A DNA stretch of 64,000 bases from Nitrosopumilaceae archaeon (GTDB lineage Archaea > Thermoproteota > Nitrososphaeria > Nitrososphaerales > Nitrosopumilaceae). Below the pieces are notes generated by a model. It was given only the letters and a program-made list of their open reading frames with translations, was not told the DNA's origin and made no database searches. Positions 58,458-64,000 of the stretch are shown piece after piece (within the stretch, counting starts at the first letter, position 1; the number at the start of each line of letters is the position of its first letter). The position numbers and the translations under genes are program-made. The stretch is from the NCBI GenBank assembly GCA_965207375.1, contig OZ242274.1:1184001-1248000 (forward strand), in the 5' to 3' direction.

Positions 58458-60217
58458 GTAACAGTTCGGTCTCTGGAAGTTACCTGACAGAAACGGTTAA
58501 AGATCATAAAATCCTATATTGTGTAGTTGATTGCCAAATCTGAACTGCCAAACATAGATTGGAACAACCCAGATGTGGTAAAATTATTTGAATACGTCAC
58601 AGGACGGTTTGAACGTGTAGAACGTGACAACAAGCAGCTAAACAAAGTAAATCATCAGCTTGAGATGAAATACCGTATATCGCAGAGTGAAAACGAGCAG
58701 CTCAGAGCACAGATAGCCAAATTGATGGGCAGTCAAGACTCAAAGACTGTTGCAAATGCCCCTCTCAAAGATGCGACAAATACAGACTCGACACCTGTAG
58801 AGGAGTGAAACACACTACCCAAAAAAGGATTCATCTCAAAAGGCGCGAAGCTACAACAAGCGCACATTTACAGGATATCCACATATAGAATCTCCCAAAA
58901 AGCCGATTCCTTCAAGTGTCACACCGCAAGAATATCAGAGTACTGTAGATCAAGAATTCTGTCATGTGTGCGGCAGTAGGGTCTCAGAATGGTGTGAAAC
59001 ACACCAAAGAACCATTCGCGATATTGTAGGTGGTAAATGGAGTCACACCACATACGGTATAACAAGACGCTACTGTAAAAAATGCCGCAAAAAGCAGGCA
59101 CCTCCAATCAAGGGAGCACTGCCAAGCGAATTGTATGGAACCAACATCATCTCAATGTTTGTCTTTCTCAGATGTCTTGGAATTTCCTTTGAGCACATGC
59201 AGGAAATTATACATACGTTACATGGAGTATACGTTCAAAGGTCAGTTATCGTGCAATTGTGTCACAAGGCAGCAATGATGCTTAATCCGGTACGTGAAAA
59301 TATTCTAGAGGATATCAAGAACAGTCCACAAATAGGCGGCGATGAGACAGGATGGTTCCTAAACGGAGTAAATCATTGGGTATGGATAGTGGTGACAAAA
59401 ACATCTGCATACTATCACATTTCCCAGTCACGCTCAAAGATGGTAATTGAAGCCATAATGGGCCAGTTTGAGGGAATCACGCTGTCTGACTCGTATCCCG
59501 GATGGAATGATATAGGTCTTTTACATCAGAGATGCCTATTGCATTATTTTCGCGACATGTATCGTACACTACAAAATAATGCAAGTGCAGAATACTGTAT
59601 ATTGTTTAACAAGTTGTACGATATTTTACATGATGCCATAGATACTGCTACCTGTAGCCCTGAGGAGGTAAAGTGCTTCCTGTACAGGATAGATGAAATA
59701 ATAGGTAATTCATGGCAGGATTCAGACTGTACACGGTATGTAAAGCGACTCAAAAGGGAAAGGGAACAGTTGTTTACGTTTCTTACAAACCCTGTAGACT
59801 ATCACAACAATGCAAGCGAGCGTGGAATAAGATGCATATCAAGGATGCGCAAGATTCTGTACGGTAGTCGTTCTGAATCCGGTATTGAGACTACTGAGAC
59901 TCTCATGACCGTATACTCTACGTGCAAGCTGCGAGATGTCAACTTTTACAAGTTTGTCAAACAGTATCTAGACGGTGACGTGCAAAAGATTCCAATGCCT
60001 GAGACTGTACCTGAGACTGTACCTGAGATTGCAGCAGCATAATTGTATCAATTACTAGGCAGAAAAGAGATTTCTGGTGACATGATACAGTCAAGCCTTG
60101 GATTATTGCAATGATTCTATGAAATAATGTAAAGATATGGTAGCGTCATCTCACATATTTTGAACAATGATGATTTTTGTACGCCTAGATTATCGCTTCC
60201 ACAGACCGATCAGTTAC
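58458..60217 (+). mobile_element. IS66-family element (single-ORF, ISBst12-like)
   Basis: 22-bp TIRs gtaacagttcggtctctggaag and gtaactgatcggtctgtggaag (19/22). No TSD seen. Confidence 0.9.
58527..60042 (+). pseudogene. IS66 transposase split by one frameshift at ~58801-58806
   Basis: Coiled-coil N-terminus (58527-58808). The next frame opens at 58801 and contains CHVCG/CKKC, GDETGW, SDSYPGW, QRCLLHYFRD and NNASERGIR. Confidence 0.88.
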
Positions 60218-60422
60218 CGATATTTGGATCTTTTTGGTATTGCTAGGTGTGAAAATTAGGGAAATTGGCTAATTACGAATCAACTCTATGGTAGGATCAA
60301 AGAGCTTTGGCATATCTTTGTATACCTTTTATCAAAATTATTTCAACCTTGATTTGGGAGACCTGAGTATGTACGTCCGTATTTATCAAATCCTTAATAG
60401 CAAATCTCAAAGCTATGGTGCA

Positions 60423-61925
60423 ATGGTACAAAAAACAAAACTGCTCATATTACCACTTGTTCTGACGCTGATATCAGTACCGTTAGCATTTGGACAAGAT
60501 ACATCAGATACCATGCAAGGTCTTGATGATGTAGAGTCTTATGTGATATCGCCACTAAAGCAATACAATGCAGGTGTACTAGCAGAACAAATTATCTGTG
60601 AAAATAACAAAACATTGATGCAGCGACCAAATTCAGAACCTGCATGTGTCTATGAGACATCTGTAGAAAAGCTAGAGATACGCGGATGGGTTGTACTGTA
60701 CACACAGGACACTGTTTCATTATCTCCGGAACGTGATACCTCGTATACAGTATCAGAATCATCGGATGTTACTTTTAGTGCACCGTGTCTTTTCTGTTCC
60801 ACCCTAGATCTGTCCAGTTTCCCAAAGATTGGTGAGATAGCTACTGCTACACTTCATGTACCTAGCAGTACGCATATCAGTATTCCAGAAGATTGGGGTA
60901 TGAATGTGTATTTTTATTCTACTGATCCTGATGCCGTAGAATTTCTAGATGTGGAACCGACAACAGTCATATCCAAAAACGATGGTTCTGTACAGGATAT
61001 CTATAGAATGCCATTTGTAACAGAAAGCAACAAACCTACAACATTCTCAATCCAGTTCAAGATTATAAAAACTGGTCAGTTTTCCATACACGGTGGAATT
61101 ACAGATAATGAATCAAATTTTGTTACTCTTTTGGTAACAGAAGATGGCACTGAGGAATTTGTTCCACAATATGCTCCTCCACCTGTTCTAACCGAACTGT
61201 ACGCCAAAGAAATCAAGGAATTGCGTGTCATAATTGACAAGAGAGGCGGCGTTGGACCTGAGATGATAAACGTTAGAGACAGTGAAATTCTGATGGATAT
61301 AATACGATTTGAGGGACTGTTAACTGAACAGGAAGCTGAAAAATATTTGTCATTTGTATTACTAAATACAGAGAGACTATACGGGGAAGAATCCCTTACA
61401 TGGCGTCAAGTAGAACAGATTCTCTTAACTGATGAATATCTTGCAGAATACATAGATCATAAAACACGTCAGGATAACCGACCACTACAGGTTCCTACAG
61501 TATACTATTCTGATTGGGGTGCAGACGGATGGAATGACGGCTATGACAGTACACTTGAGGACATTAGAAGATATCTAGCACAGGGCAACTATATGACGCA
61601 ATCCCAGATAGACCAATACATCAAGGATTATATCGCAGACGATTTCCTTGATGTCCAAAATTTTTCTTTTTCATTTTTGCCCAAGGCATATGCTGCAACT
61701 ACCATACATCTAAAGGGATGGATATTAGCAGATCCCTCATTTAGTGACAAGACCGATGACCGTATCAGTGGCATTGAAGTATGTGGGCAAAAAAAGATCC
61801 CAAATGGTTACATGACACTAAAAACCACGCGTAATATCCTTGCGTGTGATATTACTGATGAAAATGGTAAATTTGGTAAGTGTTTACGTCGTGAACACAT
61901 GATAACCACCCCTGCGCTGTACTAG
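60423..61925 (+). pseudogene. Secreted thaumarchaeal protein (SPLKQ..C domain), truncated by insertion at ~61875
   Basis: Signal peptide, ISPLKQYNAGV..IIC...PACV...LEIRGW motif. The last ~16 codons derive from MITE/IS110 sequence. Confidence 0.7.
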
Positions 61926-61929
61926 TGAT

Positions 61930-62040
61930 GAATCGACCCCTGATTAGGTATGGGCTACGCGCCCTTGGTCGTGAATGGGGCAATCCGAGCTGCTGTGTAA
62001 TTGGGCTACGCGCCCTGATAGATGTGTGCAGCTTCCGATC
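61930..62040 (+). ncRNA. Predicted bridge/seek RNA of the IS110 element
   Basis: Two stem-internal loop-hairpin units capped by identical GGGC-TACGC-GCCC hairpins; loop strands match the target and donor junction sequences. Transcript ends are unknown. Confidence 0.8.
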
Positions 62041-62074
62041 CGTCAAAACATCCGTAAGGAGGTGAAAAGAAAGG

Positions 62075-63166
62075 ATGAAAACATACATTGGAATAGACAT
62101 TGGAAAGAAAAAGTGTGACGTATGCGTCATAAATGGTACAGGACGAGTACTTGAGACCTGTCAGTATATGAACACGGTAGCAGATGCTAAAAAGTTTGCA
62201 GAAACCATGGCACGAAAATACACGGGAAATAAAAAAACATGCAGTGCTGCATGTGAAACTACAGGCAACATGTGGAATGTTACCTATGCTAAATTTGAGG
62301 CAGCAGGTATACCAATCAAGCTTGCAAATACGTACAAGATGGCCATAATTGCCAAGACTGGTAAAAAGACAGACAAGGTGGATGCACAAAAGATAGCACA
62401 GGTATTACGAATGGATATGATTCCAGAATGTTATGTACCAAAACCGGACATACGAGGAATACGTGCAATGATACGACAGCATATCAAGATAGTACATGAT
62501 AGGACACGAGTGATAAACAGAGTACGCAGTCTTTTAGACAGACATGATGTCTCAATTGATACAGTACAAGTATATGCAGTAAAGACAATGCAGTATCTAG
62601 AGTCTGTATCTCTTGATGAAATACATGATGAAATAATTCTGCAGCAATATGTCCGACAGATCAGACATCTGACCGAAGAGTTGACCAAAATGAATGATTA
62701 CATAGAACAAGAGGCAGCAAACAACGAGTATGCCAAACTATTGACAAGCATGACAGGGATGGGAACATATACTTCATTGTTGCTAGCAGTCGAAATTGCA
62801 GACATTTCAAGATTTGATAATCCAAAGAAACTTGTTGCATGGGCAGGTCTGTGTCCTACCATACACCAGTCAGGAGATCAAAAATATCTTGGAAGGATGA
62901 AGAAACTAGACACCAACAGTATAGTGAATTGGGCAATGTGCGAGGCAGCAAATGTGGCAGTAACACATGACCCTAGGATGAAATCAATATACGAATCTGC
63001 AAAAAGGCGACATGCAGACAAGCATGCACTTGCAGTTGTTGTAGTTGCAAACAAGATGATAACAATATCATGGCACATTCTGAACACAAAGACACCATAT
63101 TCGTCACACAATACAAGATTGTATCAGCGCAAGCTTGCTAAATTGGAAAAGGCACGTCAGAAATGA
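62075..63166 (+). CDS. IS110-family DEDD recombinase/transposase
   Basis: YIGIDIGK, ACETTG, KTDKVDA, AWAGLCP..HQSG. GGAGGTGA RBS upstream; intact 363 aa. Confidence 0.96.
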   Translation: MKTYIGIDIGKKKCDVCVINGTGRVLETCQYMNTVADAKKFAETMARKYTGNKKTCSAACETTGNMWNVTYAKFEAAGIPIKLANTYKMAIIAKTGKKTDKVDAQKIAQVLRMDMIPECYVPKPDIRGIRAMIRQHIKIVHDRTRVINRVRSLLDRHDVSIDTVQVYAVKTMQYLESVSLDEIHDEIILQQYVRQIRHLTEELTKMNDYIEQEAANNEYAKLLTSMTGMGTYTSLLLAVEIADISRFDNPKKLVAWAGLCPTIHQSGDQKYLGRMKKLDTNSIVNWAMCEAANVAVTHDPRMKSIYESAKRRHADKHALAVVVVANKMITISWHILNTKTPYSSHNTRLYQRKLAKLEKARQK

Positions 63167-64000
63167 TTTGTACCTGTCAAATCCGGTATTAAGCTTGCTA
63201 GCGTTAGCTATAAATGATATACTAAATAATTAGGCACGGAACGGAAACGCAATAGGGATACATCAAGGTACGCGCCGGGGTGGTTAACATAGATGTCTAA
63301 AATTACCATAAATTCAAAACAACGTTAACAGATACATCTGTTTTCATGTGTGGTATCGTGGAGCAATGCCGGACTAAATTATCTAGAAGAGATGATAAAA
63401 TACCTCTAGATGGGTAAAAACGATGTTAACCCTTACTAAAATTTTAGTCACAACAAGTACAAAGCGATTAAGAACCATTTTCAGGCCCCTAATCACAATT
63501 ACCTTTGAGTAATCGACTATCATAGTATGTAATGTAATAATTGTAATTAAAAGTTATAATATTTTCAGGCATAAAAAATACATAAAATAGGATTTGAACC
63601 CACGAAACCCTACGGTAATCAATTGATAGTCGATCTATTTTGACTAGGTTCACAAATCCATGCAATGTTGAATCTAAAGGCATGTAATTTATTTCCAAAA
63701 GATTTTTGATTCTGGATTGAAAAGTTTGCAAATAAGCTTGATCAAAGACCATTGACAATAGGCAAGTCATGGGGAAAGATTACAACATATGCTTCACCAG
63801 AAACTGATCTTGTAGCAAATCTAACTAATCATCAATAGTTTTTCACATGTTTTTAAAAATTTCACACATATTTTTACTTTTTAAAAATTTTCAAATACTA
63901 GACCATATTATAAAAAAATCATGATAATTGGCAAATTACAAAACAACCAAAAGGCAATCAAATTAGACGTTGAGCTTTATTGCATCAATTGCAACAAAAA

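What the first reader, a model, noticed from the sequence alone, without database searches (positions are those of the whole stretch)
61941..62027. Mirror-image guide architecture and a one-base core compared with IS621
Seen: order on the sense strand is right-target (4 nt), left-target (8 nt), right-donor (4 nt), left-donor (8 nt). IS621 has the long left guide on the 5' loop strand and a shared CT core. Here target and donor share only one C at the crossover and the guides abut. The base after each short guide fits the recombined product better than the substrate (TGTG-T with A-CACA at the left junction; TTAG-G wobble with T-CTAA at the right), like handshake pairing favouring insertion (inference). 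The element also combines an upstream non-coding region with long ATG-initiated sub-terminal IRs usually associated with IS1111. Whether this layout is already described for other IS110-group members needs a literature check.
Basis: partly seen in the sequence, partly recalled or inferred. Interest (0 to 1): 0.75.

Follow-up and report, generated by a model that had tools for sequence, protein, structure and literature searches.

The report
IS1111-type bridge RNA placed upstream
This stretch encodes the guide ("bridge" or "seek") RNA of an archaeal IS110/IS1111-family insertion sequence; its reversed guide order is real but already published for IS1111-type elements, and the crossover is an ordinary two-base TG core rather than a single C.

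Summary
Window 61941-62027 lies inside a 118-nt structured non-coding RNA (61927-62044, + strand), upstream of a DEDD/IS110-family recombinase gene (62075-63166). The element is about 1.4 kb and has four copies in this genome.

The boundaries were misplaced:
- Four copies, 42 uninterrupted copies of the MITE-like target repeat and 39 related RNAs place the crossover at a 2-bp TG core (61892-61893 and 63294-63295), not one C.
- The two target guides overlap on that core rather than abut.
- The proposed handshake bases lie inside the ordinary right-donor and right-target guides.

The "mirror image" is the order published for IS1111-type seekRNAs: top-strand match 5' of bottom-strand match (Siddiquee 2024).

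Other IS1111 hallmarks are present:
- a 19-nt sub-terminal inverted repeat, 89% complementary;
- 7-bp left and 3-bp right terminal extensions.

The RNA lies upstream of the gene, an exception class that the same paper notes. The nearest named relatives, ISHvo10/ISHvo9, show the same upstream layout.

Guide-to-flank covariation and stem covariation are strong. G·U pairs support the sense strand. No RNA data were found.

Verdict: a real, well-supported bridge RNA; a new member of a known kind; modest interest.

The parts
61876..61891 (+). Left flank: left end of a ~104-bp MITE-like repeat (GTAAGTGTTTACGTCG). Its last 4 nt, GTCG, are the left target.
   Evidence: the flank resembles the repeat's left terminus (consensus GTAAgTGTTAACgTCA). 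Among the four copies the flank is less conserved than the element itself.
61892..61893 (+). Left copy of the 2-bp TG core.
   Evidence: all four copies; the left-target guide strand carries TG in 31 of 32 unique related RNAs.
61894..61898 (+). AACAC, the element's left terminal extension. With TG it makes the 7-bp left extension typical of IS1111. Positions 61895-61899 (ACACA) are the right-donor site.
   Evidence: RDG-RD covariation. Siddiquee 2024 section 4 gives 7 bp left and 3 bp right.
61899..61917 (+). Left sub-terminal inverted repeat (ATGATAACCACCCCTGCGC).
   Evidence: 19 nt, 89% complementary to 63272-63290.
61927..62044 (+). Bridge/seek RNA gene: an outer stem enclosing two stem, internal-loop, hairpin modules.
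   Evidence: Covariance model R1 scores 132.9 bits here. Over 39 related RNAs, 94.5% of cells pair, 22 of 27 pairs show compensatory change and 0 of 500 shuffles reach this.
61941..61951 (+). Target-binding loop, 5' strand. [quoted passage not shown] UA (61949-61950) lies opposite the TG core, with a U·G wobble. U61951 is invariant and lies opposite position -1.
61952..61964 (+). Hairpin 1 (GGGCTACGCGCCC), identical to hairpin 2.
   Evidence: direct repeat D1, spacing 51. (helix 3: all 4 pairs compensatory).
61965..61976 (+). Target-binding loop, 3' strand. GUCG (61968-61971) plus UG (61972-61973) have the sense of left target plus core, so they pair the bottom strand. AA (61974-61975) is conserved.
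   Evidence: the fourth copy changes this strand to TTTTTTG and its left flank to ...ATTTG. One search gives the permutation test.
61994..62002 (+). Donor-binding loop, 5' strand. UGUGU (61994-61998) pairs the top strand of ACACA at the element's left end.
   Evidence: Relatives covary, for example UGUCU with AGACA and GCUUC with GAAGC.
62003..62015 (+). Hairpin 2 (GGGCTACGCGCCC).
   Evidence: helix 5: all 4 pairs compensatory.
62016..62027 (+). Donor-binding loop, 3' strand. AUAGA (62018-62022) plus UG (62023-62024) have the sense of the element's right end plus core.
   Evidence: 5 of 5 positions match in 11 of 11 elements. The variants ATAGA, ATAGG and ATGGA covary with the right end.
62075..63166 (+). 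Recombinase gene, 363 aa. Proposed catalytic residues D8, E61, D100, D103 and S266; motif GLCPTIHQSG at 258-267.
   Evidence: Pfam DEDD_Tnp_IS110 1.6e-27 and Transposase_20 4.7e-21. PDB matches ISCro4 1.1e-15 and IS621 5.1e-14, with the conserved motifs aligned. Residue positions.
63196..63215 (+). Conserved TGCTAGCGTTAGCTATAAAT, which looks like an archaeal TATA/BRE promoter and faces the right end. This is an inference.
   Evidence: the motif is conserved in 6 of 11 right ends aligned (5 elements from 4 genomes). It lies about 80 nt from the right end while the surrounding sequence diverges.
63272..63290 (+). Right sub-terminal inverted repeat (GCGCCGGGGTGGTTAACAT).
63291..63295 (+). AGA, the 3-bp right terminal extension, followed by the right copy of the TG core (63294-63295).
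   Evidence: In one search, listed contig pieces from all 4 DNA runs end at 63295.
63296..63335 (+). Right flank: right part of the same MITE-like repeat. TCTAA (63296-63300) is the right target.
   Evidence: loose ends of other repeat copies begin at 63293-63297 and end at 63335-63337.

Best explanation
The interval is the guide region of the bridge RNA (seekRNA) of an active or recently active IS110/IS1111-family insertion sequence. The element is about 1.4 kb and spans window 61892-63293 if one TG is counted with it.

The RNA is read from the + strand, co-directional with the recombinase gene. It folds into two look-alike modules, each a stem, an internal loop and a hairpin.

Target-binding loop (first loop):
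[quoted passage not shown] Donor-binding loop (second loop):
- its 5' strand pairs with ACACA just inside the left end;

Proposed cycle:
1. The DEDD/Ser recombinase (D8, E61, D100, D103, S266) exchanges strands at the shared TG.
2. The circular form (...CATAGA-TG-AACACATG...) integrates without target duplication, leaving TG at both junctions.
3. The natural target is a pair of similar half-sites inside a ~104-bp MITE-like repeat, of which I found 42 uninterrupted copies.
4. A conserved TATA-like motif in the right end would transcribe across the circle junction into the RNA and the gene.

Basis for each step:
- Shown here: the RNA structure, the four guide-DNA correspondences, the TG overlap and the target repeat.
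- Inferred from IS621, ISEc11 and ISEc21 work: the circle, the chemistry and the order of strand exchange.
- Inferred from sequence conservation only: the promoter.
For: Copies and boundaries:
- Four full copies are 98-100% identical.
- Their alignment fixes the common block and shows TG at both junctions.
- The fourth copy differs in the target loop's 3' strand and in its left flank in the matching way.

Target:
- 43 hits to a 27-nt piece of the repeat, 42 of them uninterrupted.
- Their consensus carries both half-sites with TG directly next to CCTAA/TCTAA.
- In a second genome (G004) the contiguous site predicted from another element's guides occurs 4 times exactly and 30 times with at most 1 mismatch, against 3 for the control.

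RNA:
- RNAalifold on 10 relatives gives 26 pairs, 9 of them compensatory.
- The covariance model finds the RNA in 29 of 151 genomes of the taxonomic family (this includes G000 and the unpublished G094).
- On 39 RNAs, 94.5% of cells pair, 22 of 27 pairs are compensatory and 0 of 500 shuffles reach this. Slid registers give 37-47%.

Guides:
- Permutation tests: 0 of 10,000 for LTG-LT, RDG-RD and RTG-RT; 4 of 10,000 for LDG-LD.
- TG is present in the LTG strand of 31 of 32 RNAs and in the LDG strand of 31 of 32.

Strand:
- My sum of the G·U/U·G entries's per-pair table gives about 91 of 955 paired cells, including one pair that is G·U in 25 of 36 rows. These would be A·C mismatches on the other strand.
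- Several guide-DNA pairs are also wobbles.

Protein.

Literature: IS1111-type order, sub-terminal repeats and 7/3-bp extensions.
Against: - No RNA run holds the element, so transcription, RNA ends and strand are not observed.
- Minimum free energy is no better than shuffles (z -0.36 sense, 0.00 antisense). The case for structure rests on covariation.
- In relatives I located left junctions by looking for TG[AG][AT] near a fixed offset, and right junctions by requiring TG. 'TG at every junction' is therefore partly built in. The independent support is the TG in the RNA strands, the four copies here, the repeat.
- Only 11 of 35 elements gave a locatable right junction.
- Among those 11, two (L078, L092) pair at only 3 of 7 right-target positions. 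The right flanks of L032 and L077 also do not fit their guides by eye.
- Position -1 of the left flank is G in all 4 copies, whereas the repeat consensus has A at the left half-site. No uninterrupted repeat copy with ...GTCGTG... was seen.
- The right-donor strand pairs the core in only 11 and 14 of 32 RNAs.
- Relatives are kin, not independent.
- No labelled IS110/IS1111 phylogeny was made.
Confidence: 0.85

Rival explanations
1. The element runs from about 61897 to 63296, target and donor share a single C, the guides are 4/8/4/8 nt and abut, and the next base of each short guide is a handshake base favouring the insertion product.
For: In the window copy alone, GTCGTGAA, C and TAA, and ATAGATGT, C and ACA, can be read this way. 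The conserved AA after the core in the target loop's 3' strand does match the first two bases of the element.
Against: - 3 of 4 copies have C, not T, after the right-hand TG.
- The uninterrupted target repeats join ...TCGTG directly to CCTAAAA, with no GAAC.
- Relatives with unrelated left flanks all keep TGAA-type left ends, so that sequence travels with the element.
- The G004 empty-site test fits the TG model.
- Extension bases do not covary: the AA/AG/GA variants match the element's first two bases in 1 case and mismatch in at least 5. The donor-loop extension fits the right target at 12 of 22 positions and the right donor at 15 of 22.
Confidence: 0.03
2. The functional RNA is antisense. 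Read from the - strand, the loops would have the IS621 order (bottom/left guide on the 5' strand), with the donor loop first.
For: Reverse-complementing the loops formally gives IS621-like strand positions. No RNA data exclude it. Fold energies do not discriminate.
Against: - About 91 of 955 stem cells (my sum's table) are G·U on the + strand and would be A·C on the - strand.
- Guide-DNA wobbles such as U·G at the core would likewise become mismatches.
- The RNA is co-directional with the gene and with the outward-facing promoter-like motif in the right end.
- The + strand order matches what is published for elements with sub-terminal repeats.
Confidence: 0.04
3. The architecture is as in the best explanation, but the exchange region is not exactly TG. 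It could include the preceding purine (R-TG, 3 bp) at repeat sites that have A there, or the nicks could be offset from the dinucleotide.
For: Where the repeat reads ...TTTCATGTC..., three bases (ATG) are shared with the right end ...ATAGATG. Loose ends of repeat copies start at 63293 as well as at 63294 and 63297. The invariant U opposite -1 pairs with the donor's -1 purine in 11 of 11 elements.
Against: At the left junctions -1 is G (all 4 copies) while the donor's -1 is A, so identity beyond TG is not required. In relatives, target -1 is T or C in 6 of 11 elements while donor -1 is A or G.
Confidence: 0.1
4. The twin hairpins and loops are not an RNA guide. They would be DNA-level protein-binding sites or a translational leader of the recombinase gene, and the matches to the flanks would be incidental.
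For: Rfam has no family for it. There is no expression evidence.
Against: Compensatory stem changes indicate a folded single strand. Loop strands covary with flanking DNA and element ends across 32 elements. Homologous recombinases are shown in print to use such RNAs.
Confidence: 0.02

Closest known systems
IS1111-family seekRNA elements (ISEc11, ISPa11, ISKpn4, ISPst6; Siddiquee et al. 2024)
   Same: - The top-strand match lies 5' of the bottom-strand match, and the two matches overlap in the target.
- Sub-terminal inverted repeats are present.
- Terminal extensions are asymmetric: 7 bp left and 3 bp right (TGAACAC and AGA here).
- DEDD recombinase with a GL-P----SG motif.
- Repeats serve as targets (ISPa11 targets REP sequences).
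   Different: - The RNA lies upstream of the gene, not downstream.
- The inverted repeat is longer: 19 nt against the usual 11-13 nt.
- The recombinase has 363 aa against about 340.
- The host is archaeal.
- The donor-binding part is a simple internal loop that twins the target loop. Durrant 2024 reports multi-loop donor binding in many IS1111 orthologues.
IS621 / ISCro4 (IS110 group; bridge RNA, solved structures)
   Same: - Upstream two-loop RNA with the target loop first and the donor loop second.
- Each loop reads the bottom strand on the left and the top strand on the right.
- 2-bp core included in the guides.
- Conserved DEDD and Ser motifs.
- No target duplication.
   Different: - Positions in the loop are swapped: here the top-strand/right guide is on the 5' strand and the bottom-strand/left guide on the 3' strand.
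- The core is TG, not CT.
- Sub-terminal repeats are long rather than 2-3 bp.
- Similarity is low (55-61 bits).
- Handshake guides could not be shown.
ISHvo10 / ISHvo9 (Haloferax volcanii pHV4; nearest named relatives)
   Same: - 31% identity, E 1e-45.
- ATG-initiated sub-terminal repeats and a ...CATAGG-TG right end.
- By eye, the upstream region has a loop whose 5' strand (UAUUC) complements the right flank (GAATA). Its 3' strand (GUGCUGACU) repeats the left flank.
- A downstream CAUAGGUG matches the right end.
- Siddiquee 2024 notes long non-coding regions on both sides of ISHvo10.
   Different: - The covariance model does not detect its RNA (best E 0.05).
- TG appears to lie directly against the repeat, with no AACAC.
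- All four copies share the same flanks, so I could not fix the exact ends.
ISMtsp17 (IS1111 family, upstream non-coding region; named in Siddiquee 2024 section 6)
   Same: An element with IS1111-type features whose long non-coding region is upstream of the gene.
   Different: I know it only from one sentence of the paper. Its sequence, guide order and relation to this element were not examined.

Membership tests
IS110/IS1111 superfamily (DEDD recombinase with bridge/seek RNA) | Recombinase with an N-terminal RuvC-like DEDD domain and a C-terminal Transposase_20 domain carrying the SG motif. | tested here: met
   Pfam PF01548 1.6e-27 and PF02371 4.7e-21. Aligned with IS621 and ISCro4 chains over GID, E, TDxxDA and SG. 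Positions D8, E61, D100, D103 and S266.
IS110/IS1111 superfamily (DEDD recombinase with bridge/seek RNA) | A structured non-coding RNA in an element end whose loops match both strands of the target and the element's own ends. | tested here: met
   (structure). (guide-DNA covariation and empty sites).
IS110/IS1111 superfamily (DEDD recombinase with bridge/seek RNA) | The RNA is expressed and bound by the recombinase; the element moves through a circle with abutted ends. | not testable with these tools
   No RNA run was listed. The contigs laid show no circle junction.
IS1111 family (Partridge & Hall; Siddiquee 2024) | Sub-terminal inverted repeats of sufficient length (usually 11-13 bp). | tested here: met
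   19 nt, 89% complementary: 61899-61917 with 63272-63290.
IS1111 family (Partridge & Hall; Siddiquee 2024) | Asymmetric terminal extensions beyond the repeats: 7 (or 6) bp left and 3 bp right. | tested here: met
   TGAACAC (61892-61898) and AGA (63291-63293) when the TG is counted on the left.
IS1111 family (Partridge & Hall; Siddiquee 2024) | In the RNA, the top-strand match lies 5' of the bottom-strand match. | tested here: met
IS1111 family (Partridge & Hall; Siddiquee 2024) | The long non-coding region lies downstream of the recombinase gene. | tested here: not met
   The RNA is upstream (61927-62044). The right end is about 130 nt and holds only the promoter-like motif and the repeat. 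The paper lists exceptions.
IS1111 family (Partridge & Hall; Siddiquee 2024) | The recombinase falls in the IS1111 clade of a labelled phylogeny and is about 330-350 aa long. | tested here: inconclusive
   No labelled reference set was available and no tree was made. Nearest named relative: ISHvo10, 174 bits. Others: ISAtu7 102, IS5708-like 64-65, IS621 55 and ISCro4 61 bits. Length is 363 aa. Placing ISHvo9 in IS1111 is my reading of a figure legend.
IS110 group (IS621-like) | The bottom-strand/left guide lies on the 5' loop strand and the top-strand/right guide on the 3' strand. | tested here: not met
   The order is the reverse in both loops.
IS110 group (IS621-like) | Long left end carrying the RNA, short right end, and only a 2-3-bp sub-terminal repeat. 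| tested here: not met
   The RNA is in the left end (met), but the repeat is 19 nt.

The most novel reading that the evidence does not exclude
This archaeal lineage could be a distinct third layout of RNA-guided DEDD recombinases, found in 29 of 151 genomes of its family.

It combines IS1111-type chemistry with an upstream, IS110-like position of the RNA. The IS1111-type features are the top-then-bottom guide order, long sub-terminal repeats and 7/3-bp extensions.

It adds three features of its own:
- both loops are simple twin modules, with identical hairpin stems in 17 of 32 elements;
- the target loop pairs the core while the donor loop mostly does not;
- a complete outward-facing archaeal promoter sits in the right end, instead of a split junction promoter.

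If so, guide order is tied to the recombinase and end type, not to where the RNA gene sits. The lineage would also offer compact recombinases with a TG core.
Probability: 0.3. Interest if true: 0.45.

Novelty: new member of a known kind. Interest (0 to 1): 0.3.

Why it matters
The finding gives a clean, covariation-backed map of a natural bridge RNA in an archaeal clade. Its closest named proteins in public sets are labelled Thaumarchaeota/Nitrososphaerales.

It shows that the IS1111-type guide order can go with an upstream RNA gene. That separates two features, order and position, which the two founding papers describe as going together.

It also documents a TG core, a MITE-like natural target and a probable circle-dependent archaeal promoter.

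For specialists this is a useful data point, not a surprise:
- reversed order and upstream exceptions are in print;
- a 2026 preprint reports 86 covariance models covering 32,190 bridge RNAs with many deviant structures (passages read).

Tried and rejected
- Rfam: no family matched the RNA. The only hits were a sub-threshold tRNA-like match and a chance hit elsewhere.
- Fold energies: no signal on either strand.
- Counting near-matches to the two rival empty-site strings in this genome: 6 and 40 hits with at most 1 substitution. By my rough estimate these are near chance for strings of that length, so I did not use them. The repeat consensus and the G004 test replaced them.
- RNA evidence: no RNA holder was listed. 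The four DNA runs laid are contigs and cannot show strand or expression. I used them only for where contigs break.
- Handshake pairing: the AA after the core in the target loop, the 2 nt after the core in the donor loop, and the invariant U at 61951 and 62002 showed no covariation. I claim neither presence nor absence of a handshake.
- Labelled phylogeny: I looked for named references among plasmid hits. I found ISHvo10, ISHvo9, ISAtu7, ISShdy1, IS5708 and IS1618, but no group labels and no IS621, ISEc11 or ISEc21 sequence that could be passed to a script. No tree was built.
- Control genomes gave tallies only.
- The covariance model does not detect the ISHvo10 RNA. The comparison is by eye.
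- Literature: searches were full-text searches. (IS5708) brought nothing useful. I saw no figures or supplements of any paper. The trees and RNA drawings in Siddiquee 2024 and Durrant 2024 may already show this layout.
- Rows dropped: of 39 RNAs, 3 had no TG[AG][AT] near the expected offset (L093, L094, L096). One lay at a contig end (L074). That left 35 rows, 32 of them unique. L070 and L055 were kept although my blind rule misplaces their junction, because their left end lacks 7-8 nt.
Full report
**What is there**

The interval 61941-62027 lies in the 149-nt gap between an upstream ORF and a 363-aa ORF at 62075-63166. The ORF carries DEDD_Tnp_IS110 (1.6e-27) and Transposase_20 (4.7e-21). It aligns with the solved ISCro4 and IS621 recombinases (1.1e-15 and 5.1e-14). 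The GID, E, TDxxDA and SG motifs are conserved, at D8, E61, D100, D103 and S266. Rfam has no family for the non-coding stretch.

**Boundaries**

The genome holds four full copies, 98-100% identical, and one of them carries an internal TAG stop. Aligned with their flanks, the copies are alike from GTGAACACATGATAACC... to ...GGTTAACATAGATG.

- Left flanks are only semi-conserved: two read ...GTTTACGTCG, one ...GTTCACGTCG and one ...GTAGATTTG.
- Right flanks begin CCTAG, CCTGA, CCTAA and, in the window copy, TCTAA.
- The only bases shared by the two junctions are TG (61892-61893 and 63294-63295).
- The base before TG is G on the left and A on the right. The base after is A on the left and C or T on the right.
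- Target and donor therefore share a 2-bp core.

The right flank belongs to a ~104-bp MITE-like repeat:

- A 27-nt piece of it has 43 hits, 42 of them uninterrupted.
- The consensus is GTAAgTGTTAACgTCAcGcCTAaATTTTT...AGTAATTTCgTGtCTAAAATTACC...AACAGATAC.
- It contains two similar half-sites in which TG (or CG) lies directly against CCTAA/TCTAA. Four copies read TTTCGTGCCTAAA.
- Listed contig pieces from all four DNA runs end at 63295, and other repeat copies join from 63293-63297.

**The RNA**

Homologues of the recombinase occur in 13 of 41 related genomes. Their upstream regions share the same design.

- RNAalifold on 10 of them gives an outer stem enclosing two modules, each a stem, an internal loop and a hairpin. 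It predicts 26 pairs, 9 with compensatory change.
- A covariance model finds 8 matches in this genome.
- The model finds matches in 29 of 151 genomes of the taxonomic family. That count includes G000 and the unpublished G094.
- On 39 RNAs, 94.5% of cells pair, 22 of 27 pairs show changes on both sides and 0 of 500 shuffles reach this. Slid registers give 37-47%.
- That alignment was fitted to the model, so the figures lean towards it. The independent alifold result agrees.
- Fold energy alone gives no signal.
- Summing the G·U/U·G entries's per-pair table gives about 91 of 955 paired cells. One pair is G·U in 25 of 36 rows. These would be A·C on the other strand, so the + strand is the RNA strand.

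**The guides**

Positions were checked.

- The 3' strand of loop 1 has the sense of the left flank plus TG. In the fourth copy three bases of this strand differ, and the left flank differs to match.
- Across 32 unique relatives the seven positions before TG fit their own flank at 4.78 of 7, against 2.77+-0.20 for permuted partners (0 of 10,000).
- The 5' strand of loop 1 is complementary to TG plus the right flank. For 11 elements with a locatable right junction the fit is 5.18 of 7 against 3.47+-0.40 (0 of 10,000).
- The 5' strand of loop 2 pairs the first bases inside the left end: 4.84 of 6 against 3.93+-0.13 (0 of 10,000). Examples are UGUCU with AGACA and GCUUC with GAAGC.
- The 3' strand of loop 2 repeats the right end plus TG: 5 of 5 in 11 of 11 elements.
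- TG stands in the two bottom-strand guides in 31 of 32 RNAs each. The right-target guide pairs the core in 24 and 29 of 32. The right-donor guide does so in only 11 and 14 of 32.

An independent check used genome G004. The contiguous site predicted from another element's guides occurs 4 times exactly and 30 times with at most 1 mismatch, against 3 for the reversed control.

Weak points:

- My junction rule looked for TG.
- Only 11 of 35 right junctions were located.
- Four right flanks (L032, L077, L078, L092) do not fit their guides.
- Relatives are not independent.

The order R-L-R-L is right. The one-C core and 'the guides abut' are wrong, because the two target guides overlap on TG.

The proposed handshake bases are ordinary guide positions. 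A-CACA is all donor, and C/T-CTAA is all target.

In IS621 the handshake guides sit next to the top-strand guides. They pair the last two left-side bases of the non-cognate DNA after exchange (Hiraizumi 2024, passages).

The equivalent position here is an invariant U at 61951 and 62002:

- it can pair the donor's -1 purine in 11 of 11 elements;
- it can pair the target's -1 base in 5 of 11 elements;
- it never varies, so it proves nothing.

The conserved AA after the core shows no covariation either.

**Comparison with what is known**

- Durrant 2024 (passages and section 12) reports that in IS621 the 5' loop strand pairs the bottom strand on the left and the 3' strand pairs the top strand on the right. 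The core is CT. The IS110 group has a long left end and 2-3-bp repeats. The IS1111 group has the RNA in the right end and long repeats.
[quoted passage not shown] The order is the reverse in the IS110 type, and the matches overlap in the target.
- The same paper describes sub-terminal repeats with extensions of 7 bp on the left and 3 bp on the right. The non-coding region is usually downstream, with exceptions: ISMtsp17 has it upstream, and ISHvo10 and ISAcp5 have long ones on both sides.

The element here has a 19-nt repeat, extensions TGAACAC and AGA, and the IS1111 order, but an upstream RNA.

The nearest named relative is ISHvo10 (31% identity, E 1e-45). By eye, its four copies (ISHvo10 and ISHvo9) show three shared features:

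- an upstream loop with the same order;
- a ...CATAGG-TG right end;
- an upstream CAUAGGUG.

Their exact ends remain open because all copies share the same flanks. I could not build a labelled phylogeny.

**Mechanism**

By homology with the published systems, the element probably excises as a circle joining ...CATAGA-TG-AACAC.... A conserved TGCTAGCGTTAGCTATAAAT-type motif lies about 80 nt from the right end. It appears in 6 of 11 right ends aligned (5 elements from 4 genomes). It looks like an archaeal BRE/TATA facing outward, so it would read across the junction into the RNA and the gene.

The RNA then aligns the donor junction with a repeat half-site, and the recombinase exchanges strands at TG. 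Only the RNA structure, the guide correspondences, the core and the target are shown here. The rest is inference.

**Verdict**

This is a genuine bridge/seek RNA of an IS1111-like archaeal insertion sequence with an upstream RNA gene. A feature already in print was taken for a new one.

Noticed in passing
window 61876-61891 and 63296-63335: The window copy is flanked on the left by the left half-site of the MITE-like repeat and on the right by the right half-site. About 50 bp of the repeat's interior is therefore missing. This fits a deletion between two target-like sites, or between two element copies once inserted in them.
   Followed up: partly
G000 C1:555749-555815 and C1:1740093-1740159; window joint 61950->62002 in run X4: Two degenerate copies give 67-nt matches spanning the whole RNA model, and one contig skips 51 nt. 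The DNA between the two identical hairpins is lost, leaving a one-loop hybrid with the right-target strand and the left-donor strand.
   Followed up: partly
window joint 62014->63305 in runs X1 and X2; G000 C1:2035597-2035745: One contig in each of two runs (X1, X2) joins the end of hairpin 2 to the right-flank repeat, skipping 1290 nt that include the recombinase gene. A degenerate left end plus RNA remnant without the gene also exists in the genome. The DNA encoding the left-donor guide repeats the element's right end (GATAGATG at 62017-62024 and 63288-63295), which might act as a pseudo-site. This is unexplained.
   Followed up: no
loci L045 and L055 (genome G010): Two copies lack 7-8 nt (AACACAT) at the left end, so TG runs straight into the sub-terminal repeat. 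It is as if the TG inside the repeat's ATG had served as the core. ISHvo10 also has TG directly before its repeat.
   Followed up: partly
window 61952-61964 and 62003-62015; 32 related RNAs: The two hairpins of one RNA tend to be the same while differing between elements. Stems are identical in 17 of 32 elements; examples are GGGC/GCCC, GUGC/GCAC and CGGC/GCCG. This suggests concerted change, or one protein surface reading both.
   Followed up: partly
window 60288-61925: A 545-aa ORF with no Pfam match runs through the repeat piece and ends inside the element's left inverted repeat (...MITTPALY*). Its C-terminus is therefore supplied by the insertion, and read-through could transcribe the RNA in the integrated state.
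   Followed up: no
window 63579-63663 (- strand): A tRNA-like match scores 26.8 bits, below Rfam's 29-bit threshold, with a 12-nt insertion. ARAGORN finds nothing. It may be an intron-bearing or decayed archaeal tRNA.
   Followed up: partly
window 58966-60042: An IS66-family transposase ORF (DDE_Tnp_IS66, 3.9e-30) lies 2 kb upstream. The genome also holds several other IS110-family genes of 343-404 aa that do not match this RNA model.
   Followed up: no
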